NCBI GenBank assembly: GCA_963575745.1
Contig: CAUYUJ010000096.1
Span: forward strand, 1-64,000
Length of the DNA stretch: 64,000 bases
Direction of reading: 5' to 3'
Origin: Prorocentrum cordatum
Taxonomy: Eukaryota
The position numbers and the translations under genes are program-made. Positions 3,861 to 38,753 of this stretch are shown here, piece by piece. Position 1 is the stretch's first letter, and each line of letters starts with the position of its first letter. A model generated the notes under the pieces. That model was not told the DNA's origin and searched no databases. It saw only the letters and a list, made by a program, of their open reading frames with translations.

Positions 3861-3962
3861 ATCACCTGGGACCGGATGCCCGCTGATCAACGTGGAGCGG
3901 CACTTCCGCGAGGGCCTCGTCGGTTCCTGGACGCTCGTCGCGAAGGTCTTGAGGGCGCCTGC

Positions 3963-4960
3963 AGACATCTCGACTGCCCACTCGGATGATGACCTGACCC
4001 CTTTCGGGATCATTCTTTAGAGCTGGGAACGGGCCATTCCAGCCTCCCCAGTCATCCTTCGTGGTCGTGGGGCGATGATAATCGACCAAGTCTTCTTCGT
4101 CGTAATAGTGCCAGCCAGTAATCGGCGTTTTAGTGCGTAAGGCACGATTTGTCTTAGCTACCGCTGTGGCCTGTGTGCTAGCTTTAATACATACCCTGCG
4201 TATCGTCTGTTCACGAGAGTGGTCCGACGTTTCCGTCGGCTGTTCGTGGTCCAAGACAGTTAGATCAGGGAGCATTGCTGGTTGCCGTCCAAACAAAGCG
4301 CTATATGGTGACACCTCGTTATAGAAGGTGAACGCGTTGGCGGCGAACAGGGCCTCGTGCAGTAGTCGGGTGAACACGAGAGGTATATCTACCCTATTGA
4401 GTTCAGCTTCCATGACGTGAAGTAGATGGCGTAGGATGCTATTTCTGGCCTCGGTCGTTGTAGCGTGTTGTCCGCGCGCACGTATCCTAAGTTCGGTGCC
4501 TTTTGCCTTGGGGACTGCTTTCGCAGTGTCGTTGTTAAGGGCACCCTCTCCATCATAATATAACACCTTTGCCAGTCCAAACTGCAACCAGCACTGATGA
4601 TGTGCATCCAGGATGCTGGTCATAGTCTTGTCTGGTATCTCAGTTCCAGTAGTATATCGTACACAGCGATCGATGATATGGCAAATCTTATGTTCGTGTT
4701 TGTAGAATATCAGATCACATTCCGCTTCCTCTTTAAATTTACCAGGTAGTGCAGGTATGACAGTGTGCCCAGGCTTGTCCCAAGCGCTGCACTCTCGGCA
4801 TGTGTCGCAGACACCTTTAATCAGGTTGAGGTTGACCTTGTCCAGACCTATCTTGCTTAAGATGAGTCTCATCTTGGGCTCTTTCGCATGGGACCAACGC
4901 AAGTGTAGCTTCCGCAACTCGCGTGTTACCACGCGGGGGTCAAGGCTTCGTAAATTTAGT
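3963..4960 (-). pseudogene. Integrase of copy A
   Basis: C-terminal part of ORF 3862..6093: LHLRWSH...CREC (HHCC), EAECDLIF, HIIDRCVRY, LYYDGEGAL, HATTTEARN, WNGP. Confidence 0.88.
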
Positions 4961-5689
4961 GGACTGATTTGTACATCGAACCGTGGCCAGTCTGGTAGTC
5001 GTGGTCGTGCAGCAGGGTTCCCCGCTGGTGGTGGTGGAGGTGCTTCTCTACCTTGTTGTCGACCACGTCTGACTCTAACCTGTGGTAATCGGAGATGGCC
5101 ATCCGAACTACCAGCTCCGCTCGAGGCAGGTTGCCCTGCAGCAGGTTCAGCAGCATGTCTTCCTACGCTAATGTCGTGACTGCTTGCGCCCGCTGTAGGT
5201 CCGGCTCTGGTGCCGGGTCTCGGTGCTCTCAGCCGCGTAAGCGGTGATGCGGCTGGCGCCTCGGGTGGTGGCGCTGCTAACTCAGCAGGGGCCTGCGGTG
5301 CAGGTCCTGCTGCCGGTCCAGCAGGAAGCGGCGGTATCTGTCCATGATTGTCGGGCAGTTTCGAAGGCTTGGCAAGCTTGCGTTGGCCAGGTGTTAGTGC
5401 GTGTCCAGGCTTGTTCTTCCCATAGTTCTTCTTGCAGCTCGGACCTCCCCATTGGTGGTCGCCCTTATCGTGCCGCCTGCAATGTCTCGGACCTCTATCA
5501 TGAGAGGGAGAATGCATGTTAACGTTGTCCGCGCGCGCAGGACGCCCGAGCCCCCCCGATGATGGTCTCGCAATCGAGCCATCAGGTTGTCGAGGGGGAC
5601 TCGGGTCATCCAAGTCGTATCCCCTTACGTTAGTGGCCAGCGCGGTGGACGAATACGGGTAGCCATGGGAAGAATCACGAGTTACCTGG

Positions 5690-6230
5690 AAGAGATCGTG
5701 CGCGATCTGAACAGCATCGGCAAAGAGCGACTGCATCTTTTGAGTATATTGTGCAGCCACGGACAGTTCCTTGTTACATGCCGACGCGTGCTGATGATGG
5801 CCAGTACATCGTTTTCTTTCAAAAGGCTCTCGTATCAGTACCCCATGGGAGTCACGCAGGCCAGTAGCGCATTCATCCATGTTCACCTTGCAAGTGCCCT
5901 TGCTTTCACAACGTAGTCCATGGTGGCATCTGATCCACCCAAGTCCCCACTGGTTGTTCTCGTAAGTAGAATCGTCGAATATCATTTTGACGTACAACCA
6001 CCCTCCCACATAACTTAATCTGTGGCAGCTCTTCTTTATGATGTTCGTGCCACGTGTCGTAGTTAACCTTTGCGTTGACATGAGAAGCATCACTGCATCT
6101 TGGACATCCTTGTTGCCAAGGTCAACAGAGGTGCGTTTGTCGAGGTTTCCCCCAGAAGACAGACACTCGGCTGAATGCTAATTGAGAGATGCCTCCAGTT
6201 CCTCCGCGCGATTCCAACATATCTACCTTG
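5690..6230 (-). pseudogene. Methyltransferase-like domain upstream of integrase (frameshifted)
   Basis: Hand translation of 6230-6090 gives VDMLESRGGTGGISQLAFSR / SSGGNLDKRTSVDL; downstream MDECATGL...CTGHHQH...AAQYT. No clear PC motif seen. Confidence 0.5.
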
Positions 6231-8157
6231 TTGTGTCGTCCGTAACACAAGGTGGGGATTATGGAGAATACATCTGCGTAGGATTCAGCAGGTTGCCCCG
6301 CAAGTAGTGTGATGAAGGCCTCCTCTTCATCGTCGCTGTCCGTGTCGGAGTCAAGAGGTGCGTCGGTGTAGTGCGCGCTACATTCGAGTCCTTTCAGGTT
6401 ATCTCCACAGTCGTCGTTGCTTTCTTCGGCTATTTTGGGTATCTTGCGTGGCTTGATGTCAGCTTCTTTGTCTGCTTTCTATTTTTCTGTGTTTACTTCT
6501 GGCATCCGTTGGTAGTGCTGTCTGTTGTCCTGTCTCAGGTGGGCTAAGTGTCGGAAATTCGGGAATCGAGGGGAGCGCGCGGCCGCGCTCAATCGAAAGG
6601 GGAGGGGGGCGATCGTCATCGATGATCGCCACTCGCCTTGAGCGTGGACGTGAGCTGCTATCTCCCAGGAGAGTCGGTTCCGGCTGCTCCCAGTACAGTC
6701 GGGTACGAATGCTAGTAACACCATTGGGTAATGGTGCGTTGTAATTGTGCCCGATAGGCTGGTCCTGGGTCTTGATGTCTTGGATGATCGTGTTCTCGCC
6801 CAGGTTCATCGTCACCCGTCTAACAACATGATCCCACTCGGGGCCATTCTTCCGATACTGAATGTAAGTTCGAGCTCCTTTATCGACTCGAGTATGGATA
6901 CTAAGATCTGCAGCGCTTGTGTGATTCCTCTGCGTTGTATGTAGATCCATCAGATCAAATAACCTTGCGGTCATGATCGCGAGCGTCTTGTTGCGCCATT
7001 CGGCCTTCTGAACACCTTGTCCGTGCCAATCTAGGATCTGCTCAGTAGGTTGTGCAGGTTTCCCTGCTATGTTGCATGCGCATCGCCATAAGTTGGTCGG
7101 GATGCGCGTGCAGGTAGTCGCCACTTGCAGATATGATCTGCTGGGCAACGAGTTAGCGCGGTCGTACTTGAGGCCGAAGTGGCAGAAACGCATACGCATG
7201 ACTCGTACATCAAGATCTTCAATAGCTTCTCGTATGGGACATTGTTTCCAGAAGTATCCCGGTGGTCCAACAAGTACAAGAGTCATACATAGAGCCCGAA
7301 CTTTGGACATCAAATTTTGGATGCCCTGGTAGTGTGGCCCTGCCCTCTTGCCAGGCAGCCTCGCATGCCAATCAGCAGGTGTTGCCACCCGCAACAGTTG
7401 GTAATCGCCCGAGAGAAATGCACCCAAATACTGTGTGCCAGTGGAGGTCATTACCTCTGTATGTGTAATACGGTCGCACATGTATCCACGGGCTCGGAGT
7501 TCAACGCAAGCTGTCCGTATATCTTCAATAACAAATGCACGAGAATCATCATGATGCGGCATTTTTTGTTGTTTCTGCAGCGGCCACACAGCCGGGTCCA
7601 CTGCTGGTCGTGGCAGCCGCGCAGCCGGGCTTGCCGCGGTCCCTGGCACGCGCAGCCGGTGCCTGGGAAAAGAATGCAGCATTCCCCGCGTTTGCTGACA
7701 GTACCTGGGTGTTCGGCCTGTCTGAGCAAGCGCGAGTGGCCGTGGCGCGCGCCTGCCCCCGTCGCTCGTTTGGCGATGGGGGCGTCCAAATGCCTGTGCC
7801 ATGCTTTTGCCATGCTGCGCTGCAGAGCCGCTGCTCGAAGTAAAAACATCAAACTTCTCAGCGGCATCATCCCCTTCCGCAGGTGTCCCTGCCTGTGCAT
7901 CGGGCGGCGTCCACTTCGTGCCTTCCTCGTATATGGCCTGATATACCTTCGCCTGCAAATTGCGTAAGGCGAAGTCCTTGTCGGCCGAGGTCGGGTTAGT
8001 CCCGAAGGACGTACTCCTGCGATGCCAGGTCTTCCAGGTGTTGTTCACCAAAGACTGGATCGTGAAAGCGAACGTCTCCTCGTTGATGGAGAAACTGATG
8101 CCCTTTGTGTTTTGTGACATCATATATGCGTGGGCATCGCTCACAGCAGGTGTCCCT

Positions 8158-8548
8158 GGGGTTGGCTCCGGATCAGATGCCTCTTTGACGAGCAATGGAT
8201 CATCTTCGCAATGAGGGTTGGCCGTAATGGTAAACGACATCGACGCTTTACCCTCAGTAGCCGTCCCGCACTCGTCAGCCATGAGTGCCAGATGTCCAGG
8301 AAGTGTCTTCATCAAATCAAGTACTCTAGCACCCTTTTCACATCGGATCTTGTACATCTCCGCGCCAGGGATGATCATCTTCTCGTGCCCCTGCTCCAGG
8401 GTCAGGATGGCCCTCATGTTGGACATGCTCCTAAGACCCAGGATGGCAGGGAGGTTCCCACCAGAACCCTCAGCGACATTTGCAGAATGCGTTTCAAGTC
8501 TCGGAGCAGCAGGTGTCCCCGCCGGATCTCCCCTTTCTTTGCGCGCGA
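8158..8548. repeat. ~390-bp diverged direct repeat, copy 1 (partner 12800-13188)
   Basis: Visibly collinear sequence. Both encode MSNMRAIL.LEQ.HEKMI.PGAEMYKI...EDDPLLVKEASDPEPTP. Confidence 0.95.
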
Positions 8549-8552
8549 TCTT

Positions 8553-11500
8553 TTTGGTCGCGGCCGCGAGCGAAGAGCGCAGGCAACGAACAGGATGTCC
8601 GGGCCGACGGGCAAGCCTAATTAGTAATTAGCTACAAGACGCACCGCTAGCCGGCCGGCCCACTTACAAAGCAGCCGTGGGGCTGTGCGGGAAGCTGACG
8701 GCAGAGGCATCCTGGGGGGCTCGGGCACGTGCAGTCTGACAAAATGTAGAGAAATTCGTTGCCTGCCGTGAGGCATAGACCACGCAGAGACATGGCGTGC
8801 ACCGGGGCTGACGTGCCCGTCATACAGGGTGGGGGCAGGCGCGAAGCCCGATGAGCGGGTCGCCAGTGGGGCGCCATGCCCAATCCTTCCCAACGACGTG
8901 TGCTGGCTAGGGGAGCTGAGCTGCCGAGGAACGTGGAGCGTCGCAAACCTGCCGGAGGAGGGGGGATGAGCCCGGGGTGTTGTTGCGGCTGCGAAAAACT
9001 AAACCACTCCGGCGCGGTCACAGCACCCGAAAGTCCACCAGGCAATGCACGTGGTAGGCCCGGGCGACCGCGAGCCGGCCCCGTCGACAACGGCGCAGCG
9101 CCAGGCCAGATGGACTAGAGGAGAAAGCCAGGCAGGCGTGGTGAGCATCGCCAGCGAGGCAGGGGGATCCAGGGGGGTGCTGCGCAGGGGGCGCGGCAGC
9201 TGCCGCCTGAAGTACGCCGAAGGCCACCGTGGGGCGGCCTTATCCTCCAAGTACACGAAGCTGGCTGTGCCTCCAGGGGCGGTGCGTGGCGTGTGTCCAA
9301 GCTAGTGGGAAAACCATTGCTAGTAGGATGGGGCGACCTGGGTGAGGCTGCGCTGTAGCAGCCGCGCGGGGCCGACGGCCACAATGGGCCGACCTTGTCC
9401 GCCGCTTCCGCCCTTCCCCGCGGGAGTCCAGGGCCGCCGTCAACCGCGCGCCAAGTTGGCCTCCAGGGTCGCAGCTAACCGCCGCTGAAAGTGAGGAAAC
9501 TTACCGCGGTCAGCGGGGGTCCAGGGCGGCCCTGGGGAGGGGGGGCGAAGCCGTCGAAGCCAGTCGGCAAGCCTGGCGAAGCCCCGCCAGTAGAAGGCTC
9601 GAGGGGAAGGGGGGGGGTAGATGCGACCGACCGCTCCCGCAGGGGGCCACCGAGGGGAGCGCCGGGTGAGGGAAGCGCAAGGAAGCGAGCCCCGAGGGCC
9701 AAGGGCGGGCGGGGGGCACCCGCCCGGCCCGAGAGGGGCCCGATGGGGAGAGGCGAGGAGGAAGCACCTCAACGCCCTTCGAACGGGCCCCAGATCTGCC
9801 TGTCAAGGGACACGGCCGCCAATCTCGAGAGTCCTCCAGGGTCGCAGCTAAACGCCGCTGAAGTGCAAATAGTAACGAGTGATAAGTCCTTCGCCCGGTG
9901 TTGGTGCAGCTCGATGGTGTGGTCCAGAATGGTCATCCTGCCACGCTGAATGCTGGTCTGCCAACGCGGAGACTGGCACGTCTGTGGGGGCCGTGTGCGT
10001 TGGTTCCTCCAGGGTCGCAGCTGACCGCCGCTGATGTTCGGGCGCCTGCGGTGTGACAAAACTGTGACCTAGCTAAGTCGAGCTCGCCGCCGGGCAGGCG
10101 GGGGGGATGCTGGGGCCCACCTCCTGCCCATGGCCCGCGAGCTGGCTGTCGTCATCGGACAGCACTGTCTGGGGGCCAGGGGGGCCTGCTTGCGCGAGCC
10201 AGGCGGGCCCCGCCGTGCCAGTGAGGGTGAGATGTCGGGTGCAAGTGGGGGGTCCCCCAGTGTCGGGCCCAGAAAGGTGGATGGTGGTCCACTTATCCAG
10301 CGTGGGCTGTCTAGCTAAGCTGCGCCGTGGGTGAGATGTGGGGGTGGGCCTTCGCCCCGGCGGAGGGTGGCCCCGGGCGTTGCGGCCTCAGCTGGGCGCG
10401 GCAGGGTGAAACAAGCCCCTTCGGGGCAACGGGTGGCTGGAGGTGGGGGGGGCAGGTGTCCATGGGCAGGTCCCTGCTATGGGCGTTGAGGTAGGCCGTG
10501 TCGGGAGCGCGGCAGCCTTGGGTGCCGGAGTGGCTCTTAGCCCACCAGCGGGCCCGCTTGTCCGAGTCGCGGTCGTCCCCTCGTGGGGAGTATCGTTTGC
10601 CCCTGCCTTTCCAATCGGAGTCCGTCCATGGGGTATCTCGCCACTCCCACGAGGTCCACTCTTGCCAGCCCCGCCACTGGCTGGGGGTGGCAGTTCCAAT
10701 GGCTCCAGCCCAGGAGTCCCGTGCAGCTGCATGCGCGAATGCTCGGCTCTCGGCAATCCGGGGGGCCAGCTCGTCGCGGCTGCTGTGCCGCGTGGGGCGT
10801 GTGCGTGAGCGTCGTGCCGCGCGGAGTCCATGTGCTTGTCCCTAACTGCGACCCAATCTACGCCGAGCCTGAGTTCTCGATCCATCCGATATGCATCATG
10901 GTCGGCGTTGGTCCATGCTCCCAGGAAGTCCGAGCAAGTTTTGGGTGTGTTGAGTTTGGGATTGCTCTTGTAGCCTCCCTTGGGGTCCTGACACAGGGCA
11001 GCCCGCTTAACCCACGCATGCCAGATGCCGTTGAAGGAGCCTCCCAAGGTCTTTTGCCGGCGTGTAATCTTGTCCTGGATGGGCTCGTCCCTTTCCACGT
11101 CTGCAGCTGCAATAGTGCATCTGTACATGGGGCTGCCGCCCATGGGGTCGTTAAGGTTCTCGTAGTATGGCTGGGCACCCCTGCTGTCCTTCCCGGGTGC
11201 CCAGCGGGCCTCTGTGCGCATGAGATTACCCCTGGGTGACTTGACGGCGCGCCCTCTCCCGTCTTCAATATCTCCCGAGGCGGGACGGTCGCGTCCTCGG
11301 TCCCATGAAGTGCGGTTGGGCGTGCGGTCGATCCTGGCTCCCGCGCGATCCCAGGATGATGCGCTTCCCCTTCCAGAGCTGTCTTTGGCCCTCCGGAGTT
11401 CCAGGGCAGCAACTAGGTCAACGGTCCGGGAATAGGGGGTCCAGGCCTTGCCGCTTGGGGGCGCATCCGTTAATGCACCGAGGGGGTCGAAGAGGTCTGC

Positions 11501-12785
11501 TCCTTCGTCCTCGTCGTCGGCCAGTTCTGGGCTCGCGATCGGGCTCGTTTCCTTGGTTGTGGCTCATGCTGTTCCTGGGTCGTCCCCCCAGTCGGGCGCA
11601 TCGTGCTCGCCCTCGGTCTTGCATGCCTGCTCGCGCGAGTCCTGCACGTCCGTGGGCGGGTCGTTGGCCCCTTCGTTGCCGGGGGCCTCATCATCCGCCC
11701 TGGGGGGGTGACCTGGAGGTGCCTCTTGCTCCCGAACCTGGCTGTCCGATGGGGGGGCGTTTGCTACATCGGGTCTGTTCAGCCAGTATGCCGCCGGAGA
11801 GTTTGCCGTGGTTGCGGTCTCCATGGCGGTCTGAACTGGGCCCAGCTTCGCCAGTGATTTTATGGTGCCGTCGGCGAGGGTCGTGGGGTCCATGCCCACG
11901 AGGTATTGCACTAGGGTGCTGAGCCTGTGGCGAAGAGGGCAGGCGCCTCGCTGCTCATCAAGGTTGGCTGCGTATGCCTGCCATTTGCTCGCATGCATCA
12001 CGTTGGCCCGCGCCAGGTGGGACACCGCGCGTGCCGCTGCCGCTCGATGGCTGTCCCATGGGATACCTGGGGGATGGCTATTGTCCGGGATCGTCTCTCC
12101 GTAGATGTTGACCAGGAAAAGGCGCAGACACTGGGGGGGCCAAGACTCCTCGTTGGTCTTCGCGCCCGTGATCCCGAAGCCGTATTCCGCCACGTAGTCC
12201 ACCCACTTTTCGTAAACAGTGGGGTTCCACTCTAGCAGGAACTTGACCAATGAGCGCAGGGCGCTATGAGACCCCTGTCCTGTGAGCCCAGAGCTAGAGT
12301 GGGTTGGTAGGGCGGGCCCCGAGGGCGGGGGAATGTAGGGGGACAGGGACTTGATGTCCCGAGCCTCGGCATCTTGCCCGCTCCCCTCACCGTCGGGGTA
12401 GGGCTGGCCGGTGCTGGTGGGGAGGGTCAACCCTCCGGCTGGGGAAGCTGGTTTTGTGTAGGCGTCTGGAGCTGCGGCGCTGGCGCAGTCTGGGGTGAGG
12501 TAGACGGCGATGTCGTGGCGCTCAACTACCATTTCCGTTGTCGCTTCCCGCTTGGCTGGTGCCGTGGGGTAGATGCGCGAGGACTGCTGCCGCGTTCCAG
12601 ATGTGCGTGAGGCACCGCCTACAGGCCCAGCCGGCGTTCCACCTCCGTTGGGTCCAGAGGGCGAGCATGAGATCCCATGGCGGTAGACCAGTACTGTCAT
12701 CGACGGGTGCTTCAGGCTCTGGGTTCCGCAGGAAGCATCCTAGCGCTGGGCGGGTCGCTGCCCACTCCAACAAAGGTGATCCCGC
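8553..12785 (-). mobile_element. Unclassified GC-rich insert with two ORFs of unknown function (10388..11221, 11564..12700)
   Basis: Compositional shift between the two Copia-like copies. ORFs contain a loosely repeated ~50-aa helical unit. No catalytic motif recognised. Confidence 0.35.
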
Positions 12786-12799
12786 TGGGCAGGTTTCGC

Positions 12800-13188
12800 T
12801 GGGGTTGGCTCCGGATCAGATGCCTCTTTGACGAGCAATGGGTCATCTTCGCGCTGAGGGTTGGCCGTCATAGTAAACGACATCGGCCCTTTATCCTCAG
12901 TAGCCGTCCCGCACTTGTCAGCCATGAGTGCCAGATGTCCAGGAGGTGTCTTCATCAAATCAAGTACTCTAGCACCCTTTCCAAATAAGATCTTGTACAT
13001 CTCCGCGCCAGGCGTGATCATCTTCTCGTGCCTCTGCTCCAGGATCAGGATGGCCCTCATGTTGGACATGCTCCTCAGACCCAGGATGGCAGGGGGTTTC
13101 CCCCCAGAACCCTCAGCTACATTTGCAGAATAAGTTACAAGTCTCGGCGCAGCAGGTGCCCCCGCCGGATCTCGCTTTCTTTGCGCGC
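12800..13188. repeat. ~390-bp diverged direct repeat, copy 2 (partner 8158-8548)
   Basis: Collinear with copy 1, with scattered substitutions. Confidence 0.95.
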
Positions 13189-13829
13189 ACTCTTGCGGTG
13201 CAGGGATTTATCGATATCGCGGCGCCATGTCCCACTCCTGACACGAGGAGCCTCTTCGTCAGGGTCAGCCTCTTGATGGCGTGTCCGTGGGAGCGAGATA
13301 CCTGTTCAAAGGTCTGTGTCGTCTTCAAACCAGTGATATTGATATTGCTGCCAATATCCAGAAAAATCGTCAACATACCATTTCTCATAGTTCCACTGTT
13401 AGCTGCCAAGGCTAGTTCGTGGCGTTCACCAAACAGTCCAAGCACTTCATACAATGTCGCGCCGTGCATGCCTTTGCGGCGCCTCTGCTCCGACAACCAG
13501 TCGTTTCGTGACAAAGATGTAAAGGCATTCATATAGCCACGAGCCTCCTCTTCGGTCGTAGGATTCCTTTCAAAAAAGATCCAGGCTGTAGGATACTCGT
13601 CGTAGGTATATGGGTGTGATGCGGAGGTGGTGGGCAAGTTCAGGAACGTGTCCTCATCCGCGCGCATGCCCATTTGACCATCCGTACTTACCATAAACAC
13701 AATATGCAGCATATCGCGTTTGGATATCACACTACTGCCACTACGCGCGCTTACAGGGCTCTCCGTCCTGCGCTGATTGCGTGGGCGGAGGTCTCGCCCA
13801 TGCATCGCCGTGACGAAAGTTTCTTTCAA
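13113..13829 (-). pseudogene. Retropepsin-like aspartic protease region
   Basis: IFLDIGSNINITG (D-[TS]-G-like) followed by LLVSGVGHG. The LPAILG-type segment follows after a frameshift. Confidence 0.7.
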
Positions 13830-15929
13830 TTTGCCTTTTGGAATGACGCGCTCGTGCGGAGTTCGGAGTAATTTTACTAAAACTACTCCGCGCGCAGTCG
13901 CATCCCGCTCAATGATTTATATGGCTTGGTGCGGAGTAGTTTCCGATCCCGTTTCGGGGTGACGGAAATATTCACGTCTCCGGGATCGGAAACTACTCCG
14001 CCGAATGATCCCAGCACCATGTCATGTTAGGAATTTTGAGAGGGATGGGAGAGATCTTCATCATAGCAAAGTGAAGCAACTTTTGTCACTGCTGTGTATG
14101 GCACGTATGTATTTGGAGACTGAAGCCACTGAGCGCTCCTGCCAGTAGCCCTCTCCGTGCGCCTCAACCGCGTATCGTTCACTGGCACCGAAGGTGGTGC
14201 TGATATAGCAGGTGCCCCTGCGTTGTTGTCGGTCTCTGCCGCCAATGGCATGGGCGTGTCTATTGCAGGTGTCCCTGCAACTGTGATTGCCGCCGTTACT
14301 AGCCCCGCGCTGGCTGATAATGCAGGCTGCCCCGCTGGTGTCGTCATCGAGACTGCCACGTTGCCCGTCATCATCGCCGTGGCGCAGTTGAGCTCTTCGC
14401 GGAGGTCCCTGAGCTCGTTCGCCCCTCGGAGTATAGCTTCATGACGATTGAGTGACTCCTGATCTCCGGCAAGGGCGTAATGTAACCCGGCAGTAATTAA
14501 GCCAACACCCCGCAGATAGCGCAGGGGGCCTCACTTGCGAAACCTTCCATGTACCCAGCCAGCTGTCTACCCGCATGAGCATGTGCCTCTGGATCCCAGC
14601 AGTGTGCGTGGAATATGTGGCCGCACTGGAGCCCCCAGATTTTTATCATGGTTCATCAAAAAATGTCCAAGCATATGGCGCACTTGTTGAAGTCGCCGTC
14701 ACTGATGATGGGCGGTGTTGCCGATGGCCTGGTACGCGTCTGACGCTCCAGGGTGCTCTCACCAGCCTCGTACCGAATCGGTGAAACGTCGGTAGCTTCA
14801 TTGCTGCAAGCGTGGCTGGACTGATCGCAGGTGTCCCTGCTGTATTGGGATTGGCAGGTTGCCCCGCGCGGCTCAGCATTCTATTGGCCTGACGCTCCTG
14901 ATTTCGACGCTGAAGGGCAGAATGCGTCTCCAGGTTGGCCTGCTGCGCCTCATGTATGGCTAGGATTTCAGGGCGCAGCCCTCCCATGGTCGATGGCAGT
15001 ACTAGGCCTGGGGCCTGTTGCTGCACATCTTGATCCATGGGGGCGGCCAGATATCCATAGTGAGGGATCTGGCCTGGCACGCCTGATGCATGCCCTGAGC
15101 CACGCGTCAGCTGCGACTGGTGGAAGTCGTCGGCCGTCGCCCGAACATATGGGTTCTCGGGCTGTGCTCCCACTCGGGGAGTACCACTCACCTTTGCGTG
15201 ATAGTCAGGATAGAGTGGGTGATCCATTGGTGCTGCTGTTGAACGGTCAGCAGACGTTGGATCGTATGTCGGATGACTGAACAATCCTGGCACGTATCCA
15301 AACCGATTGGGGTTGTCCGGTGATGGATTTGGATCCGTAACATACTCCCAAGGCGGCGTCCAGTTGGCACTAGGGAGGTCAATGCCGTCCCTACGCGTAC
15401 TCTGAGCGGCTTCACGCATCTGCCGATGCATCTTGCTGACCAACCAAACTCTCGGTTCTCTGTGCAACATATTGGTCGGGAAAAGCAGGGTGCCCCGCAT
15501 GTGGGCATGGCGATGCAAATGGCGATGTCGCCTGTGAAGCCTGATAGAGCTGCGGATCCATTCGAATGCTTTGGAGCCTCGCCTGCAGGCTGTTCGTGCT
15601 CCCAACATTCTGTGGAGTACCAAATGGTGTGGTAGCTCCGCTCATTGGAGCAGATGAAGCAGGTTGTCCTGCAGGCACTGGCAGTTGTTGTACATGAGCA
15701 CGCCACGGTTCGTTAACGTACAGCGTGTCGGAGGGCGTGATGCCACTTGAAGTAATGCCTGTCACATCTGCGTTCTGAGCCTGTATCCGAGATCCATTAG
15801 ATCCCCCTGCAGGTGCCCCCGCGTAACGCGCGTCCTGTATCATAAGCACGCTTGAGAACTCGACCTCCTGAGCTGGAGGCGGACCGGGACACTTCAAATT
15901 TTAGGGGGTCATTGGGATGAATCAATCCT

Positions 15930-18041
15930 TCAAATATGATGCGTCGTTACGGAACTCGTACATTTTTCAATAGAAATATTACCACCCGGATACGGCTGAT
16001 TGCTGTCCCGCCAATATAAAGGATTGACCAATTTCCGTCCCACACGATTGTACAGACAATTGCGGTTGGGCAGAATCCCGATCAACTGGACCATGTGGGT
16101 CGGAGGAATCCTGCCGTTGCGGCCCGCTGGCATGACGATGTCATTTGCTGAGCGCCAAATCGGAATGTTGCCCCGAAGCAATTTCTTCAGGCTAACCATG
16201 GCCAACACCTCGGAATCAACGCGCAGGCCGGACTGGATTCGACTGTCACAAGGAAGGTATGGGCAACTGTGTACAAACTGTCTGCCCCTCTTCTTGCTGG
16301 TGTCGTCGGAACGGCATGACAATCCAATGCTAAGTATACTCGGAATATTTCCCCATTGAGTTCCATACATGAAATAACAAGGTGCACCAGGAGCGGACGC
16401 ATCAGTAATTCTCAAATATAATGATTCAGGGCACAATACACCAGGGCTGATGTGTCCGATACTTGGACGGATGAAGTGCGTGTCGTGCTTCTCGGAGGCG
16501 TACTTCAACTTCTTGAGCTGCAGCCTGTTCTTTTTCATTCCAGTCTCATCAACCGTGCCAATACATTCCAGCACAGCGTAAGCCTGGTACGCCCAATGCT
16601 TGTCCTTGAGCTTGTAGCGTGCAATCTCCAGGTGCTTGTAGAGGTAGGTCTCATATGGTTCAGCCGGCAAATTTTTGAGTAACTGTGATATTTCTGCCCA
16701 TCCGACGTATTCGTCGTAAGATGGTACTCCCCGCAGAAACATGTCCGAACGTTTACCTTTATGAAAAAAAGGTTTGAGACGGAGGGCAGTCGGCAGCCAC
16801 CCTGAAATCTGGCGCTGCTTCCCATAGCTGAACTTCGGCTTGTGAACATATTCTGATATGAAGACCCCTTCCAGATATTGCTTCTCAGAGTCAAGCGTGA
16901 GTAGTGGGCGTTTCCACAAAAGGTTGCGCACAACTTGGCGCGTGTGTGACTCTGGGTCATGATGAACGGCAGTGTCCACGAGGTTGCATTGGACCACCAT
17001 GTATCGATCAGACCCGTCGTCAATCTGGGGATTATACGCTGGGTGGATCTTTGTGCGGTTGGACGTGCGTATCCTTTCCCAGTACTCTCGGCACTCCAAT
17101 GGCACCCCCAAAGTGGGGGCAGGTTGTCCCGCTGAGCTCTGAGCAGGTTGCCTCGCGGAACTCTGAGCAGGTTGCCCCGCGGAGCGTGGGGCTGCCACTG
17201 GTGCGGCAGGTGCTGCGGCGCTCGCCGCCGATATGGCAGCGCCAGCAGTTCCCCTGGGCGTCCGTGGAGTTCCTGTGGGGGTACTGATATCGAAATCCTG
17301 AGGTGTCTTTTCCTTGATGTTATCAGACTCGACTGTCTTATCTTTGGGCGCCGTTCCTGGCGCCTTCGATGAGGTGGCCAGTAGCTTTCCAGCACCGCGT
17401 TTCGTAGAGGAAACATTCCTTGTCCGTCCTTCCAGCGTGGGCGCCCATCGTGTCCGGTGCGTCCGACCTGGTGCAGGGCCGCGACGTGCCACAGGTTCCT
17501 TTGGAGTAGGCGTACTGCTGCCCTGAAATGCAGCTGCTGCGGCAGCCACTGCTGGTCCTCTGGATCGTTGTCGATCAGCAGGTTGCCCCGCATGTCGCTG
17601 CTGCTTGCTGACCTCAGGGTTGGGATCATCTGGGCTCATTCTCTGCTTTCTCTTGGGTCTGAACTGATCGGGGCCAAGAGATGGGCTTGATGAATCAGAA
17701 GATGGGGGAATATCGATGATCGCCTCTGGCTTTGGCTTAGGAGTTGCCTTTGCCGTGGCTCCTGCCGGCGCCCCTTGTGCATGACGTATGGGGCCTCGGT
17801 CAGGATTCAGATCGACATTATCCGGCGCCCTGAGGGCCATGTTTTTAATGATGGTTGTGTGCTTACCTGAAACAAGTAGGCATTGGCGTTTCGTCTTTCG
17901 ACTATGCTTGTCTTTATCCAGCCAACACTCTGAGCACTGTAGGCAATCCGCCTCCCAGGAGATAGATCCATATCTCCTGTGACATCGTGCGCGGGGTCGA
18001 TCGGGGTATCCGTCTGACACGTGACGTCCGTAAGACCCCAA
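15930..18041 (-). CDS. Polyprotein segment with a Tpt1/KptA-like NAD+-dependent RNA 2'-phosphotransferase domain (~16080-16830), probably decayed
   Basis: Ordered motifs: ISGWLPTALRL, GWAEISQLL, KNRLQL, FIRPSIGHIS, MYGTQWGNIPSILSIGLS, GRQFVH, SGLRVDSEV, IWRSANDIVMPAGRNGRIPP. Confidence 0.8.
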   Translation of the reverse strand: MGSYGRHVSDGYPDRPRARCHRRYGSISWEADCLQCSECWLDKDKHSRKTKRQCLLVSGKHTTIIKNMALRAPDNVDLNPDRGPIRHAQGAPAGATAKATPKPKPEAIIDIPPSSDSSSPSLGPDQFRPKRKQRMSPDDPNPEVSKQQRHAGQPADRQRSRGPAVAAAAAAFQGSSTPTPKEPVARRGPAPGRTHRTRWAPTLEGRTRNVSSTKRGAGKLLATSSKAPGTAPKDKTVESDNIKEKTPQDFDISTPTGTPRTPRGTAGAAISAASAAAPAAPVAAPRSAGQPAQSSARQPAQSSAGQPAPTLGVPLECREYWERIRTSNRTKIHPAYNPQIDDGSDRYMVVQCNLVDTAVHHDPESHTRQVVRNLLWKRPLLTLDSEKQYLEGVFISEYVHKPKFSYGKQRQISGWLPTALRLKPFFHKGKRSDMFLRGVPSYDEYVGWAEISQLLKNLPAEPYETYLYKHLEIARYKLKDKHWAYQAYAVLECIGTVDETGMKKNRLQLKKLKYASEKHDTHFIRPSIGHISPGVLCPESLYLRITDASAPGAPCYFMYGTQWGNIPSILSIGLSCRSDDTSKKRGRQFVHSCPYLPCDSRIQSGLRVDSEVLAMVSLKKLLRGNIPIWRSANDIVMPAGRNGRIPPTHMVQLIGILPNRNCLYNRVGRKLVNPLYWRDSNQPYPGGNISIEKCTSSVTTHHI

Positions 18042-19539
18042 TCGCTGGACTCGTAACCTTCAGGGGCAGCGTCCGTAGGATCAACTTCTTCAGCCATCTC
18101 ATCATCTTCATCTTCACCAGCTTCTCGTTGGCCTTCTTCTTCTGATTTGTGATCAGCAGGTTTCTCTGCGTGCCAATCGCGATTGAACTGCGCCAAATAG
18201 TGAGTGGGTGTCAAGTTTTTCCAAACGAGGCTTATGCGGGCTATGTCGTCAGCTGTGGCATGGTCGTAATCGCTCTCCGTCAGCTGCTCTTTATATGGCG
18301 TAGTATTGGGATCGGTGCAATGACCCCGACCTTAACCATGAGACCAAATCCACGGTGTTCTTCTAAAACTCGTGCTTCTTGATGGACGTCTCATGGGGCA
18401 ACCAAGCCTGTCGCCAAAATATATTCGGGGCATGAGCAACGCACGTTTCTGTAGAGCTTCCGTTCCTCGATGATAGCCCTCTTGACGTTGCGCGTGGCCA
18501 TCTTATCTTGTGATTTGGTAGGTCCTGTCCTCGTCGAGCGTATGATCTTGCCTGCCTCATCTCGTTTGACCTTGTGAAGAGAATGCCAATGCTGGATTTG
18601 ATGCTCTCTCCAACCCTGATCCAGCCAGTATTCCATCTGACCTGAGGGTGTGTGCAGACGAGCCAATCCAGCTTCCGTGTAGCCTTTGAGACGCTGTATG
18701 CTATCCGCTGGACATTCCTCTCCTCGCGGTTGGTCAACTAGAGGCGGGCGTCCCCGCGAGCGCTCCCTCCCTGGATGAGTATCCAGTCAATTCGCCTGCC
18801 GTGGCGGGGCCTTTGGGGCCCCCCCGCGCCAGGGGGGTAAGGGCGTTGAACGCCGCTAGAACGAGCGCCACTGGAGCGGGCTCGCCTGCGATGTGGTGAG
18901 CGGCTGGGAACCCGACCGCGACGTATCGTGCGGTCACTGTCTTCCCGTTCGTCGTCCTCGCCGTCGTCGCGACAATTCTCCTTCCCCCAGGCTGGGCGGC
19001 TTGGAGATCGCTTCTGGCGGCTGATGGGTCGATCTGATGCAGCAAAAGTGTATTGAAATTCTTCAATATGACCGAGCTCATATTGAATGCGCTCAGATAG
19101 ATCACCAGCGTCTCGCGGGCTTCCTCGCAGAGGATCACCAGCAAGTAATAACATGTCTGTCGGATTTCCAATCGCCCGAGGATAGGGCACCGCAGGTATT
19201 TCTTCATCTGTTGCAGGCATAATAGATTCTGAGTCTGCGGGTGCCCCCGCCATGCCAAAGTCTCCTTCGGCGGGCGCGTGGAAGTTCTCGACAAAGTCAA
19301 TATCTGCAGGTTGCCCCGCGATGGGTATACCCAGCCATTCTGCCAAATCGATGCCGTTGTGGCCAGTGAACACCTCCTCGAAAAGCTCGTCGGCGTAATT
19401 CTCGAAGGTCATGCTGGCACTGAGATACCTGGCAGCCATGAAGTGAACAATTGTGGCTGAGCTGTCGGCAGAGTCGGCTAATAGCGACTCCCAATCAACA
19501 TACTCTACGTCGGAGTCTGTTTGAGCCAAATGCATTGAC

Positions 19540-21411
19540 GGACCCCTGCCTCTTCCATCACCTTGGGGGCACTCACGTCGAAAATGCTGTGTGCTGTGGC
19601 ATATGTCGCGCTCCATTGTTTTTACCGTTGGCATCCTTTGGATTTCCCCGCCATCCCTTGCCTTTGCCTGTTGTGTGCCTGCGGTTTCTGCCAGCGCCAA
19701 AGCGCATTTCTTCATGCTGAGGTCCAGTAAGAGACGCCGAGAATGCTAGTATGCCTCTGCCATGTAATGGCCAACGCTGGCCTTTGCCTTTACTTCGACC
19801 CTTGCCTTTTCCCTTAGTTGATCGTCGTACAATGCGTCTTACTTTTCGGACTGGTTTCTTCATGAAGCTCCGCCAACGACGCTTGTGTTTTTGATAGCTT
19901 AAAAAATAAGCATTGAGCTTGTTGCTCTTCAGTAAGGTATGTAGGCATATCAGAATAATCCAGGGCGGTAGCTTCGTCATCTGAAGACGTAACCGTATCG
20001 GTGCCGGAGTCGAAGTCGGACTCGGAGGGTTGCCCCGCTGAGCCCATTAGGATCATGGCTTGTATGGGGGAGACCGCGTCGGGCGGTCCCCTAGGTCTGG
20101 CCCAGGAATCTTGCGACCCCGAAGCCGTTCCACCATTCTGAGCCAGCTGTGTAGTGGTCTCAGTTGACTGTGGATCATCATTCCAGACGTTGTTGGCAGG
20201 TTGCCCTGCGTTGGCCTCCACATGGAAGGTCTCGGTTCGGTGACCGTGACTAAAGATACCACCAATACTGCCGGGGGTTCTCTCAGCAATGTGAGCAGAT
20301 GACCTCATACGTTCAAGTAGAGCGTCAAATTGTTGAAGGTCTCTCGGCATGTGGTGGTTCAGAGGCTGCAGGAGTTGTTGTGCACGCGATGTCCCCACTC
20401 CAAAGGCTCTGAATATAATCGCTGTTAGGATTTGGAAATTGGGGATGTTGAAGCCGGCTCTTTCAGCTTCGTAGCGGGCTATCTCAAGCCGTGCTAACGT
20501 CTGGTCGATACGTTCACCCGCATGGACTCGAAAGTCAATAAGAGCCGTACCAGAATTGAGTTAGCGCTCCTCTTCTAGGCTCTCGAACTTCGTGCTTAAG
20601 AGGAACATAATGTGGGTGGCGCCATCGGTGTGGCGACCACCTATGTTGACGCCAAAATGGATAACTGCTGGGGGACTCTCATGGCTATGGTCTGTGCGAG
20701 ACCTCCCAAACTTCGCTGCAACGCTGCAGCCTGCTGGGAGGGCGTCGTATTGCCTGTGGTCACACTGATCCAGGCATGTACTTCGCGGACGAATTCGCGA
20801 AAAGGTACTTGACCGGCAGGGTCCCGATGGGGGCCGGTCGTTCTTGTGTCGTCTCCGCCACGCATATGTCCTACCGCACACCCAATAGCGACCCATGCGA
20901 GCCCAAATATAGTAACACCAATCCAACGGCCTCGTAGGTCGTAATCGGATGTAGTCGGTTGGGACTTCTGTTGTTTAGTCGTAAGTCTGCGTGGGGTCGG
21001 AGGCGGCAATATGTCGTATCGCATGTTTCCATGGATTATGTCTTCGAAGAAATTTCCAATTGGAGTAAGTGGGTGGACTCCAGGAGTGTAGTAGCGCAGG
21101 GATGTAATATGTAAGTAAGAGACCTCCGCTTGGACAGAGGTATCGCTGCAAGTTTCCTTGCGGTACTGCGTAGTTATATTCATTCCTCCGCGCAAACCCA
21201 CTGCACCCTGATGTTCCACCATATCTGTAATCCACCAGAAAGTGCCGTGGATGGTGAGGAGTAGAGCAAGAACTGAGCACCATAGGCCAGATCCGCTACC
21301 AAGTTTGAAGGGGGCTGGGAGGCCCAGCCAGCAGCTTCGCCTCAAGCGAAGCCAGACTCCCGTTCTGCTGTACCGTAGTAGCCATAGTCCCGGTATGAGA
21401 GGATGTGCCAT
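19540..21411 (-). pseudogene. gag-like region with N-terminal hydrophobic segments and decayed CCHC knuckle
   Basis: PFREFVREVHAW...QQAAALQRSLGGLA; GKGKG runs; GNPKDANGK; (R)DICHSTQHFRRECP. Frameshifted. Confidence 0.7.
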
Positions 21412-21559
21412 CTCAAGCAGTAGGAGGATCCTTTTGGTCTCGATAGCGATTGTGTGCCTCGCAATGAAACGCAGTCATAGTTGGGCGGCCGGCCGCTTGA
21501 GCCGACGCGGCCGCAGGCGCACGCTCGCTTCCACTCCTTACGTCCCTCATCTCGCTTTA

Positions 21560-22295
21560 GAGTTCCCCAGCCCCCACGAGGACCCCCAACGGGCCTCAAG
21601 AACTCAAGAGGGCCCACAGATGCGATTTTGATGGCTCTAGAGGGCGAGGCACATGGGGGACCCTCCTTTCTTTTGATGGATGGCCTCCAAGATGGCTCCA
21701 AGAGACCCTCCAGAGCTCCCAAGAGGGCCCCAGGGGAGCCTCAAAGGCCCACCTTAAAAAACCTCAGAAATGCCTCGAGAGGATCCCTAAGAGGACCCAA
21801 GAATACCACCAGATGGTTCCAGGAGTCCTCGCCCGTGTCGCCCTCATCCTCGTCCCCGCCCTCGTCAATGTCCTCAATGTCCTCGTCGTCCTCCCCTGTC
21901 CTCGTCGTTCTCATCCTTCTCCTCCTCCTCGTCCTCCTCCTCCTCGTCATCGTTATCATCCTCGTCCCCCTCCTTCTTCGCCTCTTCCTCCTCCTCCTCC
22001 TCCTCGTCCTCCTGCTTGTCCTCGTCCTCGTCCTCCTTCCCGTCGTCCTCATCCTTTTCCTGATCCTCGTCAATCTCCTCCTGCGCCTCCTCCTCCTCCT
22101 CCTCCTCTTCCTCCTCCTCCTGCTCCTGCTCCTCCTGCTCCTCCTGCTGCTCCTCCTCCTCCTCCTCCGCCTCCTCTTCCTCCCCTTCGTCGATCTCACC
22201 AATGTTGCCCCCCTTGCTTCACTACATACTTACCAACGTCCCTCCTTCAGACAACTCCCCTGGGCATCGTGTCTGGATGGGCTGGCGGGGCTCCT
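21560..22295. repeat. Dispersed composite repeat (CCCAAGAG-rich, (CTC/GTC)n, conserved ~95-bp tail), copy 1
   Basis: Tail ACCAATG...CAGACAACTCCCCTGGGCATCGTGTCTGGATGGGC matches ~24713-24808. Related CCCAAGA-rich tracts at ~36.1-36.5 kb and ~43.1-44.1 kb. Confidence 0.8.
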
Positions 22296-28301: not shown

Positions 28302-28302
28302 C

Positions 28303-28334
<32 letters not shown>

Positions 28335-28497: not shown

Positions 28498-28510
28498 TAG
28501 GACCAGGGTC

Positions 28511-29259: not shown

Positions 29260-30352
<1,093 letters not shown>

Positions 30353-38683: not shown

Positions 38684-38722
38684 CATCATCGTTATCACTA
38701 TCATCATCATCATCATCACCAC

Positions 38723-38753
<31 letters not shown>

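What the first reader, a model, noticed from the sequence alone, without database searches (positions are those of the whole stretch)
5012..20209. At least 22 dispersed 14-nt hairpins with sense-strand-only G-U wobble throughout one retrotransposon family
Seen: GCRGG-N4-CCYGC starts at 5012, 5126, 6288, 7054, 7879, 8509, 13152, 14208, 14265, 14322, 14827, 14854, 15485, 15659, 15809, 17119, 17167, 17578, 18744, 19237, 19306 and 20196 (near matches at 8146, 17143, 18156, 20025). I did not notice it in the 8.55-12.8 kb insert. By hand count, 8 are GCAGG/CCTGC, 2 GCGGG/CCCGC, 12 GCAGG/CCCGC and none GCGGG/CCTGC. The 12 mixed copies give an A-C mismatch on the + strand but a G-U pair on the element's sense (-) strand. 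Sense loops are GNNA in 16 of 22 (GCAA x7, GACA x4, GGCA x4, GAAA x1). It usually reads AG(Q/T/A)PA, with Pro as CCT in 20 of 22. Known: GNRA tetraloops stabilise RNA hairpins, and some ssRNA viruses use many dispersed packaging stem-loops. Inference: a multi-site cis code overlaid on the coding sequence, such as Gag packaging/compaction signals or binding sites for an element-encoded enzyme.
Basis: partly seen in the sequence, partly recalled or inferred. Interest (0 to 1): 0.82.

Follow-up and report, generated by a model that had tools for sequence, protein, structure and literature searches.

The report
In-frame hairpin code in algal retrotransposon
One large copia-like retrotransposon carries more than twenty copies of the same 14-base palindromic motif written into its protein-coding sequence with fixed "silent" bases, which points to a repeated RNA signal of unknown function layered over the protein code.

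Summary
GCRGG-N4-CCYGC occurs 23 times in the window, against 1.2 expected. All 23 lie between 5012 and 20209, and all read Ala-Gly-X-Pro-Ala in frame on the minus strand.

The motif is set at the nucleotide level, not the peptide level. The sense consensus is GCR GGG NNA CCT GCN. Gly is GGG in 20 of 23 sites (background 18%). Pro is CCT in 20 of 23 (26%). The first Ala is GCR in 23 of 23 (51%). The last Ala codon is free. Codon-preserving shuffles give 0.27 strict matches against 16 observed. The strict consensus occurs only on the sense strand.

In other copies of the family (protein fragments labelled Pyramimonas sp.), the A, G, P and A residues are more conserved than the flanks, and X varies. 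Distant relatives carry a copia-type reverse transcriptase but lack the motif.

My best reading is a repeated sense-strand RNA hairpin: a 5-bp stem with a G·U-tolerant middle pair and a GNNA loop. It probably serves as a recognition site for an element protein. This reading is inferred, not shown. There is no covariation, no DNA from other copies, no RNA data, and no sign that the flanks favour the fold. The G-U pattern is consistent with a hairpin but does not prove one.

The parts
3862..8627 (-). 3' part of the element copy: unknown 722-aa ORF, linker, divergent integrase. The RT is missing because the copy is cut off near 3862.
   Evidence: ORFs; weak rve hit, E=0.1; integrase relatives; family depth in run X1
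8628..12739 (.). Foreign insert of 64-66% GC with no motif. It is flanked by a ~480-nt internal duplication of the element (8136-8561 and 12779-13201).
   Evidence: two X1 contigs join 8552 to 13216
12740..21474 (-). 5' part of the element copy: 5' ORFs, CCHC-like knuckle, Tpt1 domain, remnant of RING region, protease-region ORFs. It is broken by several frameshifts.
5012..5025 (-). motif GCGGGGAACCCTGC, AGNPA
5126..5139 (-). motif GCAGGGCAACCTGC, AGQPA
6288..6301 (-). motif GCGGGGCAACCTGC, AGQPA
7054..7067 (-). motif GCAGGGAAACCTGC, AGKPA
7879..7892 (-). motif GCAGGGACACCTGC, AGTPA
8146..8159 (-). decayed site CCAGGGACACCTGC, PGTPA (paralogue at 12789-12802, PAKPA)
8509..8522 (-). motif GCGGGGACACCTGC, AGTPA (same site as 13152 in the duplication)
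13152..13165 (-). motif GCGGGGGCACCTGC, AGAPA
14208..14221 (-). motif GCAGGGGCACCTGC, AGAPA; AG.PA intact in 14 of 14 homologues
14265..14278 (-). motif GCAGGGACACCTGC, AGTPA; intact in 12 of 14 homologues
14322..14335 (-). motif GCGGGGCAGCCTGC, AGQPA; intact in 13 of 17 homologues
14827..14840 (-). motif GCAGGGACACCTGC, AGTPA
14854..14867 (-). motif GCGGGGCAACCTGC, AGQPA
15485..15498 (-). motif GCGGGGCACCCTGC, AGHPA
15659..15672 (-). motif GCAGGACAACCTGC, AGQPA
15809..15822 (-). motif GCGGGGGCACCTGC, AGAPA
17119..17180 (-). three motif units 24 nt apart (17119 AGQPA; 17143 ARQPA, decayed in this copy and AGQPA in 5 of 5 homologues; 17167 AGQPA). The unit number varies among copies.
17578..17591 (-). 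motif GCGGGGCAACCTGC, AGQPA. An out-of-frame homologue, P0024, shows the same four silent bases.
18156..18169 (-). decayed site GCAGAGAAACCTGC, AEKPA. The out-of-frame homologue P0029 implies an intact site in another copy.
18744..18757 (-). doubtful match GCGGGGACGCCCGC (other frame, CCC)
19237..19250 (-). motif GCGGGGGCACCCGC, AGAPA (G-C pair)
19306..19319 (-). motif GCGGGGCAACCTGC, AGQPA
20025..20038 (-). decayed site GCGGGGCAACCCTC, AGQPS
20196..20209 (-). motif GCAGGGCAACCTGC, AGQPA
16131..16535 (-). Tpt1/KptA RNA 2'-phosphotransferase domain inside the polyprotein (aa 509-643 of ORF 15930-18059)
   Evidence: Pfam PF01885, E=4.6e-9; PDB 7yw3, E=1e-9
19563..19604 (-). CCHC-type zinc-knuckle remnant. 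Read from the sequence as R-x2-C-x4-H-x4-C, with the first Cys replaced in this copy.
   Evidence: zf-CCHC_2, E=0.6 only; translation
3940..4923 (-). integrase core region (aa 419-746 of ORF 3862-6177)
   Evidence: best hit 2.7e-88; rve E=0.1

Best explanation
The motif is a nucleotide-level cis element of the element's sense transcript, 5'-GCRGG-GNNA-CCUGC-3'. It can fold into a 5-bp stem whose middle pair is A-U or G·U, capped by a GNNA tetraloop. It can only sit where its forced translation, Ala-Gly-X-Pro-Ala, does no harm, which means in disordered linkers between folded domains. It is kept there by purifying selection in the active lineage of this one family.

Because the stem sequence is the same at every site, the element is probably read by a sequence-specific partner. 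I take the most likely partner to be an element-encoded RNA-binding protein: the Gag/nucleocapsid zinc-knuckle protein, or less likely the Tpt1-domain protein. About twenty identical sites would mark and condense a very long genomic RNA for packaging. I estimate 16 kb or more from the 13 kb seen here plus the missing RT.

Shown: the motif, its strand, its frame, fixed silent bases in this copy, conservation of position and of the A, G, P, A residues across copies, and absence in distant relatives. Inferred: RNA as the active form, hairpin folding, the protein partner, and the packaging role.
For: Enrichment and confinement:
- 23 matches against 1.21 expected, all inside the element.
- The strict consensus gives 25 hits at one mismatch or fewer, all on the minus strand and 24 in the element.

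Nucleotide rather than peptide constraint:
- All 23 AG.PA peptides in the element use GCR for the first Ala and CCY for Pro. The 6 AG.PA peptides elsewhere in the window use GCT or GCC there.
- GGG 20/23 against 18% background (p=1e-12). CCT 20/23 against 26% (p=1.5e-9). GCR 23/23 against 51% (p=2e-7). CAA 10/11 against 40%.
- The fifth codon is not different from background (p=0.11). First Ala against last Ala, R/Y, gives Fisher p=2e-6.
- 2000 codon-preserving shuffles: loose pattern mean 5.9, maximum 13, against 25 observed. Strict pattern mean 0.27, maximum 3, against 16 observed.

Hairpin-like anatomy:
- The arms are reverse complements.
- The two unconstrained third-codon positions 3 and 12 form a standard or wobble pair in 22 of 23 sites.
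- The loop ends are G (20/23) and A (18/23), while the two middle loop bases vary.
- The asymmetry between position 3 (A9, G14) and position 12 (T20, C3) has p=0.0018. This argues against a symmetric double-stranded DNA site and fits G·U tolerance.
- In +-50 nt context the stem is in the minimum-energy fold at 11/23 sense sites (mean pair probability 0.51), against 5/23 (0.22) for the antisense strand.

Selection across copies:
- At three sites, the A, G, P, A residues are identical in 174/180 cells, against 473/706 for the flanks. X is identical in 27/45.
- Over 13 sites, the fixed positions match in 272/312 cells against 804/1235 for the flanks, and AG.PA is intact in 57 of 79 site-by-homologue cases.
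- Two homologues predicted in a shifted frame expose the silent bases at two sites. All 8 positions fit the consensus.

Family specificity:
- 150 relatives of the integrase ORF hold 12 AG.PA in 102,386 aa, about 0.12 per 1000 aa. The element holds 21 in 4,460 aa.
- A 62%-identical relative lacks both linker sites.

Retroelement nature:
- Long relatives have RVT_2 downstream of the integrase match. This holds in 5 of 12 scanned above Pfam's cut-off, with one more below it.
Against: - There is no covariation. The stem has the same sequence at every site, and the 12/8/2/1 pair classes equal independent expectation, so folding is inferred only from palindromy, the loop ends and the strand asymmetry.
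- The flanks do not favour the hairpin. Native mean stem probability is 0.51 against 0.60 (sd of replicate means 0.056) with shuffled flanks, and 9 of 23 sites are above the shuffled median.
- Only 8 of 23 loops are true GNRA.
- The most stable variant, with G-C at positions 3:12, is rare (2/23). Stability as such is therefore not what is kept.
- Codon-level data come from one decayed copy plus two glimpses. No DNA of other copies could be obtained.
- No Gag family was recognised by Pfam. There is only a knuckle remnant at E=0.6.
- In the known multi-site packaging signals of ssRNA viruses, as I recall them, the loops carry the shared motif and the stems vary. Here it is the reverse.
- CpG decay combined with selection on the peptide could by itself produce the R at position 3 and the T at position 12 from a GCGGG/CCCGC ancestor. 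It would not produce their unequal frequencies.
Confidence: 0.4

Rival explanations
1. RNA-RNA pairing code. Every site carries the same two complementary arms. Any 5' arm can therefore pair with any 3' arm, in the same RNA (compaction) or with the same site in a second RNA (multi-point dimer linkage, by extended duplexes with G·A-flanked internal loops). No sequence-specific protein is needed.
For: The arm sequence is invariant at all sites, which a purely local hairpin does not need. Neighbouring sites compete, so local hairpin probability is low in the tandem groups 14827/14854 and 17119-17180. The flanks do not favour the local fold. The strand asymmetry and G·U tolerance fit as well as they do for the hairpin.
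Against: Five-base-pair contacts are weak, and the local hairpin is kinetically favoured. The conserved G and A loop ends are better explained by a tetraloop. Nothing was tested directly.
Confidence: 0.15
2. The hairpin, or its linear sequence, recruits a host factor rather than an element protein. Possible roles are nuclear export of the unspliced RNA, translation control, or protection from decay or silencing.
For: The same sequence evidence as for the best explanation applies. No element protein has been shown to bind it. No Gag family was recognised.
Against: The motif is absent from distant relatives and from the rest of the window. A host factor's site might be expected elsewhere too. 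Only 64 kb of host sequence was seen.
Confidence: 0.13
3. The motif acts as DNA. It could be an asymmetric double-stranded site for a DNA-binding protein, or a hairpin in single-stranded plus-strand cDNA during reverse transcription or integration.
For: Fixed silent bases show nucleotide-level constraint but not which nucleic acid carries it. G·T wobble and GNNA-type loops also exist in DNA hairpins (my own knowledge). The plus-strand cDNA has the sense sequence.
Against: A symmetric dimer site is disfavoured: position 3 against position 12 gives p=0.0018, and the spacer ends G and A are not complementary. An asymmetric site gives no reason for 5+5 reverse-complementary arms. Binding sites for DNA factors usually sit in LTRs, not in ORF linkers (my own knowledge).
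Confidence: 0.12
4. AGxPA is a peptide signal, such as a protease cleavage site or flexible linker. The uniform codons are left over from recent spread of one 15-nt unit by duplication or gene conversion.
For: The motif sits in linkers between domains. The A, G, P, A residues are conserved while X varies. One group is a true tandem repeat with variable unit number.
Against: The sites are old. The same positions occur in copies only 58-79% identical in protein, yet the silent bases are still uniform at 20 or more sites in this copy, while the fifth codon has drifted. There is no flank similarity between sites. The silent bases are shared by two other copies.
Confidence: 0.1
5. The motif is a functionless by-product of a mutational process, for example repeated insertion of one short palindromic oligonucleotide (a footprint or templated insertion), kept only when in frame.
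For: It has a palindromic form and the same length at every site, and all sites are in one frame.
Against: No copy in the alignments lacks the five residues at any site, apart from changes in unit number within the tandem group. The fixed residues are more conserved than the flanks, 87% against 65%, which a neutral footprint would not be. No target duplications flank the sites.
Confidence: 0.07

Closest known systems
Multiple dispersed packaging signals, or 'repetitive structural motifs', of ssRNA viruses (listing and abstract starts of PMC6281560 and PMC8206606, seen)
   Same: Many short stem-loops are spread along a genome, inside coding sequence. They share one recognition feature and are proposed to bind capsid protein cooperatively.
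   Different: This case is in a retrotransposon. Here the whole stem sequence is invariant and the middle of the loop varies, whereas in the viral cases as I recall them the loop motif is shared and the stems differ. Every copy is in one reading frame with one forced pentapeptide. No binding has been shown.
Phage lambda/P22 boxB hairpin bound by the N peptide (recalled, not from a call)
   Same: A 5-bp G+C-rich stem is capped by a GNRA-type loop and read by a short basic peptide.
   Different: boxB has a pentaloop and occurs once or twice per transcript in non-coding RNA. Here there is a tetraloop at about 22 coding sites, and no N-like protein has been identified.
Retroviral packaging and dimer-linkage elements: palindromes and tetraloop hairpins in the 5' leader (recalled; reviews listed were not read)
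   Same: These are sense-strand RNA, short palindromes or tetraloop hairpins, and nucleocapsid zinc knuckles act as the readers.
   Different: They are clustered in the 5' untranslated leader and are few in number. Here the sites are spread over 15 kb of ORF.
Viral polyprotein cleavage motifs of the Ala-Gly-X type (recalled)
   Same: A short Ala-Gly-X peptide recurs between domains of a polyprotein.
   Different: Cleavage sites leave synonymous positions free. Here they are fixed.

Membership tests
Peptide cleavage/linker motif | Conserved at the amino-acid level with free synonymous codon choice | tested here: not met
   GGG 20/23, CCT 20/23 and GCR 23/23 against a near-uniform background. 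Codon shuffles give 0.27 strict matches against 16 observed.
GNRA tetraloop hairpin | Loop is G-N-R-A closed by a Watson-Crick stem | tested here: inconclusive
   8 of 23 loops are GNRA (GCAA x7, GAAA x1). 8 more are GNNA with C at the third position. The 5-bp stem is present at 22 of 23 sites, counting G·U. Folding was only predicted.
Structured RNA element supported by covariation | Compensatory changes on both sides of stem pairs | tested here: not met
   The stem sequence is invariant. The only variable pair (positions 3:12) shows classes 12/8/2/1, equal to independent expectation. Homologue variants that break a pair are not compensated.
Dispersed packaging signals of ssRNA viruses | Many sites along the genome sharing one motif | tested here: met
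   About 22 distinct sites over 5012-20209, on the sense strand only.
Dispersed packaging signals of ssRNA viruses | Specific binding of the sites by the capsid or Gag protein | not testable with these tools
Gag itself was not recognised by Pfam.
Symmetric double-stranded DNA site for a dimeric protein | The two half-sites tolerate the same changes, and the spacer is symmetric or free | tested here: not met
   Position 3 is A9/G14, while the complement of position 12 is A20/G3 (p=0.0018). The spacer ends are G and A, not complementary.
Ty1/copia LTR retrotransposon (the host element) | Integrase upstream of an RVT_2-type reverse transcriptase in one polyprotein | tested here: inconclusive
   No RT is present in the window because the copy is cut off at about 3862. 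Relatives of the integrase ORF have RVT_2 downstream in 5 of 12 scanned above the cut-off. The window's own rve hit is only E=0.1.
Ty1/copia LTR retrotransposon (the host element) | Long terminal repeats and a primer-binding site | tested here: not met
   No direct repeat pair flanks the copy in the window. This is expected for a truncated copy, so it is not informative about the family.
Known RNA families (Rfam 15) | Match at gathering score | tested here: not met
   0 matches in the whole window. A 14-nt hairpin is below what such models can detect.

The most novel reading that the evidence does not exclude
A lineage of very large copia-like retrotransposons has evolved a genome-wide 'address code'. 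About twenty identical 14-nt RNA hairpins are written in frame into the linkers of its own polyprotein. Its nucleocapsid or its captured Tpt1-type RNA-binding domain reads them to select and condense an RNA two to three times longer than usual for this class. This would be the first multi-site packaging code described in a retrotransposon. It would also be a clean natural case of a protein sequence (AGxPA) dictated by an RNA structure.
Probability: 0.3. Interest if true: 0.85.

Novelty: new variant of a known kind. Interest (0 to 1): 0.68.

Why it matters
If the motif is a functional RNA signal, it shows a retrotransposon using the many-weak-sites strategy known from small RNA viruses. It would offer a simple, sequence-defined handle (one 14-mer) for studying how very long retroelement RNAs are recognised and packed. 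It is also an unusually clear example of overlapping codes: four silent codon positions are fixed at more than twenty places, and the RNA dictates a pentapeptide that is tolerated only in linkers. In practice, the 14-mer is a diagnostic marker for this family and for its strand in genome annotation. The three full-text searches I ran listed no paper describing such a feature in a retrotransposon. I saw only listings and abstract starts, and subscription journals are not covered.

Tried and rejected
- **DNA of other copies.**
  - The search for related loci with the 709-aa ORF found no relative in viral contigs or metagenome contigs.
  - A DNA pattern of three sites at 57-nt spacing, using only first and second codon positions, returned 120 metagenome loci. 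None was related by blastn or tblastn, and none held two strict motifs. These were chance hits in G+C-rich DNA.
  - As a result, synonymous-site conservation across copies was not measured. R-scape-type covariation analysis was not done either, and would be uninformative with an invariant stem.
- **Sequencing runs.**
  - One DNA run (X1) holds the family at very high copy: 17,698 contig pieces laid at 80-99% likeness. A metagenome run (X2) holds a little.
  - The output lists only the best-supported 40 of about 5,300 differences, none of them within a motif, so per-site variation could not be read.
  - No RNA holder was listed, so nothing can be said about expression.
- **Protein searches.**
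  - The first protein search, with the whole 709-aa ORF, found nothing because the collection holds only short fragments. Shorter queries worked.
- **Other searches with no result.**
  - Rfam: no hit.
  - PDB sequence search of the 722-aa ORF: no hit, so no methyltransferase could be confirmed.
  - Earlier findings of this scan: none.
- **Ideas considered and dropped.**
  - 5' splice sites on the antisense strand (CAG|GT): positions +3 to +6 do not fit.
  - E-box or DRACH-type motifs: they fit only some loop variants.
  - Half-sites acting alone: ACCTGC outside full sites occurs 11 times against 3.8 expected, and at least five of these are the decayed full sites.

Full report
**1. The observation**

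The pattern GCRGGNNNNCCYGC matches 23 times in the 64-kb window. One hundred dinucleotide-preserving shuffles give a mean of 1.21 and a maximum of 5. Every match lies between 5012 and 20209.

One more match, at 18876, was missed. The four near matches are real. The 8628-12739 insert has none.

Sites 8509 and 13152 are one site seen twice, in a 93%-identical internal duplication. Sites 18744 and 18876 are in another frame than the neighbouring long ORF and deviate most from the consensus. I treat both as doubtful.

**2. The motif is a nucleotide motif, not a peptide motif**

All 23 matches read Ala-Gly-X-Pro-Ala in an open frame of the minus strand. I then searched the other way, for the peptide AG.PA in all six frames. 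The element has 23 on its sense strand, and all 23 use GCA or GCG for the first Ala and CCT or CCC for Pro. The six AG.PA peptides on that strand elsewhere in the window use GCT or GCC for the first Ala.

The element's background codon usage, with motif codons left out, is close to uniform: GGG is 18% of Gly, CCT 26% of Pro, GCR 51% of Ala, CAA 40% of Gln.

| Codon position in motif | Observed | Background | p |
|---|---|---|---|
| Gly = GGG | 20/23 | 18% | 1e-12 |
| Pro = CCT | 20/23 | 26% | 1.5e-9 |
| First Ala = GCR | 23/23 | 51% | 2e-7 |
| Gln = CAA | 10/11 | 40% | 7e-4 |
| X codon ends in A | 18/23 | – | – |

The fifth codon is GCT 10, GCA 6, GCC 5, GCG 2, which does not differ from background (p=0.11). 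The first and last Ala differ in R/Y use with Fisher p=2e-6.

Two thousand codon-preserving shuffles of the element's ORFs give 5.9 loose matches (maximum 13) against 25 observed. They give 0.27 strict matches (maximum 3) against 16 observed. Overlapping ORFs are counted twice in both the shuffles and the observed values. From amino-acid composition, 0.24 AG.PA are expected and 21 are seen.

The sense consensus is therefore GCR GGG NNA CCT GCN. In that strict form it has 15 exact and 10 one-mismatch hits. All are on the minus strand and 24 are in the element, against 1.58 expected. There are no hits at one mismatch or fewer on the plus strand. The sites share no flanking similarity.

**3. What carries it**

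On the minus strand the region encodes a long, frameshifted polyprotein.
- Pfam recognises only a Tpt1/KptA RNA 2'-phosphotransferase domain, at E=4.6e-9. PDB entry 7yw3 confirms it at E=1e-9.
- Pfam also gives a weak integrase core (E=0.1) and a weak zinc knuckle (E=0.6).
- An exhaustive search with the integrase ORF found 1464 relatives. Of 12 long relatives scanned, 5 have a copia-type RT (RVT_2) above Pfam's cut-off, downstream of the integrase match, and one more has it below the cut-off. One 3301-aa relative also has a RING finger upstream.

The host element is thus a large Ty1/copia-like retrotransposon. Its RT lies beyond the truncation near 3862, where another element in the opposite orientation begins. 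The copy is interrupted at 8628-12739. Two contigs of run X1 join 8552 to 13216, so other copies lack the insert. The family is very abundant in that run, with 17,698 contig pieces at 80-99% likeness.

**4. Other copies**

Short queries retrieved 29 protein fragments that their source labels Pyramimonas sp. (EukProt). In the alignments they are 48-79% identical to the window (alignments).
- At the three sites 14208, 14265 and 14322, the A, G, P, A residues are identical in 174 of 180 cells. The sixteen flanking residues are identical in 473 of 706, and X in 27 of 45.
- Over all 13 sites covered by any fetched protein, the fixed positions match in 272/312 cells and the flanks in 804/1235. AG.PA is intact in 57 of 79 cases. 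The failures are mostly the more distant relatives in the pre-integrase linker.
- The window's ARQPA at 17143 is AGQPA in 5 of 5 other copies.
- The 24-nt tandem unit around 17119-17180 varies in number between copies.
- Two fragments were predicted in a shifted frame, in which the motif's silent bases become second codon positions. At 17578 (P0024) and 18156 (P0029) all eight exposed bases fit the consensus. This is the only codon-level evidence from outside the window.

Distant relatives do not have the motif. There are 12 AG.PA in 102,386 residues, and no other recurrent gapped pentapeptide appears in them. A 62%-identical relative lacks both sites in the hypervariable linker before the integrase. 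The motif is therefore a lineage-specific acquisition. It sits in poorly conserved linkers.

**5. Hairpin or not**

For a hairpin:
- The arms are reverse complements.
- The unconstrained positions 3 and 12 pair in 22 of 23 sites.
- The loop ends are G and A while the middle two bases vary, as in GNNA loops.
- Position 3 is A or G, but position 12 is almost always T. This asymmetry (p=0.0018) does not suit a symmetric double-stranded DNA site and does suit G·U tolerance on the sense strand.
- In context, the stem is in the minimum-energy fold at 11 of 23 sense sites, against 5 of 23 antisense.

Against a hairpin, or neutral:
- The pair classes 12 G·U, 8 A-U, 2 G-C and 1 A-C equal independent expectation, so there is no covariation.
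- The stem sequence never changes, so sequence rather than shape may be what is read.
- Shuffling the flanks does not lower the stem probability: native 0.51, shuffled 0.60.
- Only 8 loops are true GNRA.
- The most stable G-C version is rare.
- CpG decay under peptide selection could generate both the A at position 3 and the T at position 12 from GCGGG/CCCGC. It would not generate their unequal frequencies. The T is also shared by the two other copies glimpsed.

**6. Mechanism**

I commit to a sense-strand RNA element. It is a small hairpin of fixed sequence, repeated about twenty times, placed where AGxPA is tolerated, and read by a sequence-specific partner. The most likely partner is the element's own nucleocapsid-like protein, which would select and condense a very long genomic RNA.

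I am about 90% confident in the nucleotide-level constraint, about 65-70% confident that RNA is the active form, and 40% confident in the full statement.

The rivals are:
- inter-site or inter-molecule RNA pairing through the shared arms;
- a host RNA-binding factor;
- a DNA-level site or cDNA hairpin;
- a peptide motif with recently spread codons;
- a neutral insertional by-product.

**7. Comparison and novelty**

The nearest known idea is the multiple dispersed packaging signals, or repetitive structural motifs, of ssRNA viruses. I saw only the listings and abstract starts of PMC6281560 and PMC8206606. This case differs in four ways: the host is a retrotransposon, the stem is invariant, the loop middle is free, and the frame is strictly fixed. 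Three full-text searches listed nothing describing such a feature in a retrotransposon. One search listed nothing on Tpt1 domains in retrotransposons. I read no paper in full and opened no supplements.

I rate this a new variant of a known kind, with interest 0.68.

Noticed in passing
window 16131-16535 (-), inside ORF 15930-18059: A Tpt1/KptA RNA 2'-phosphotransferase domain is embedded in the retrotransposon polyprotein, between the knuckle region and the protease region (Pfam E=4.6e-9; PDB 7yw3 E=1e-9). Other copies keep its N-terminal part (P0020, P0027, P0028). One literature search listed no report of this. Its role and any link to the hairpins are unknown.
   Followed up: partly
window ~14530-14650 (-); proteins P0012, P0017, P0004; P0064 aa 884-936: Family members and a distant 3301-aa relative carry a RING-H2 finger (PF13639/PF17123) upstream of the three-site cluster. 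The window's copy is broken there.
   Followed up: partly
window 8628-12739, with 8136-8561 and 12779-13201: A 4.1-kb G+C-rich insert carrying two 391-aa minus-strand ORFs of no known family splits the element. It is flanked by a ~480-nt duplication of element sequence (93% identical over 300 nt). This is too long for a target-site duplication.
   Followed up: partly
window 13798-14114: Several X1 contigs replace this ~315-nt stretch with 16-22 other letters, so the window's copy has an extra insertion or substitution here relative to other copies.
   Followed up: no
window 1198-3886 (+): A second, unrelated element lies in the opposite orientation. A 496-aa ORF has FxGxG-like and PC-containing stretches that recall a cytosine methyltransferase (my reading only, no Pfam hit). 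It is followed by an integrase-C-terminal-like ORF at 3161-3886.
   Followed up: no
window 25502-27523 (-): A 673-aa ORF has an ADP-ribosyltransferase domain (PF03496 E=2.8e-6, PF01129 E=3.2e-6).
   Followed up: no
window 38600-42000 and 21850-22230, 28230-30120: There are large arrays of short-period repeats (8, 9, 12 and 90 nt), strongly skewed in composition. A run of 100 N lies at 41224-41323.
   Followed up: no
window 14208-14335: The three motif sites are spaced exactly 57 nt apart. This spacing is kept without gaps in all homologues that cover them. Other groups are spaced 27 nt (14827/14854) and 24 nt (17119/17143/17167).
   Followed up: partly
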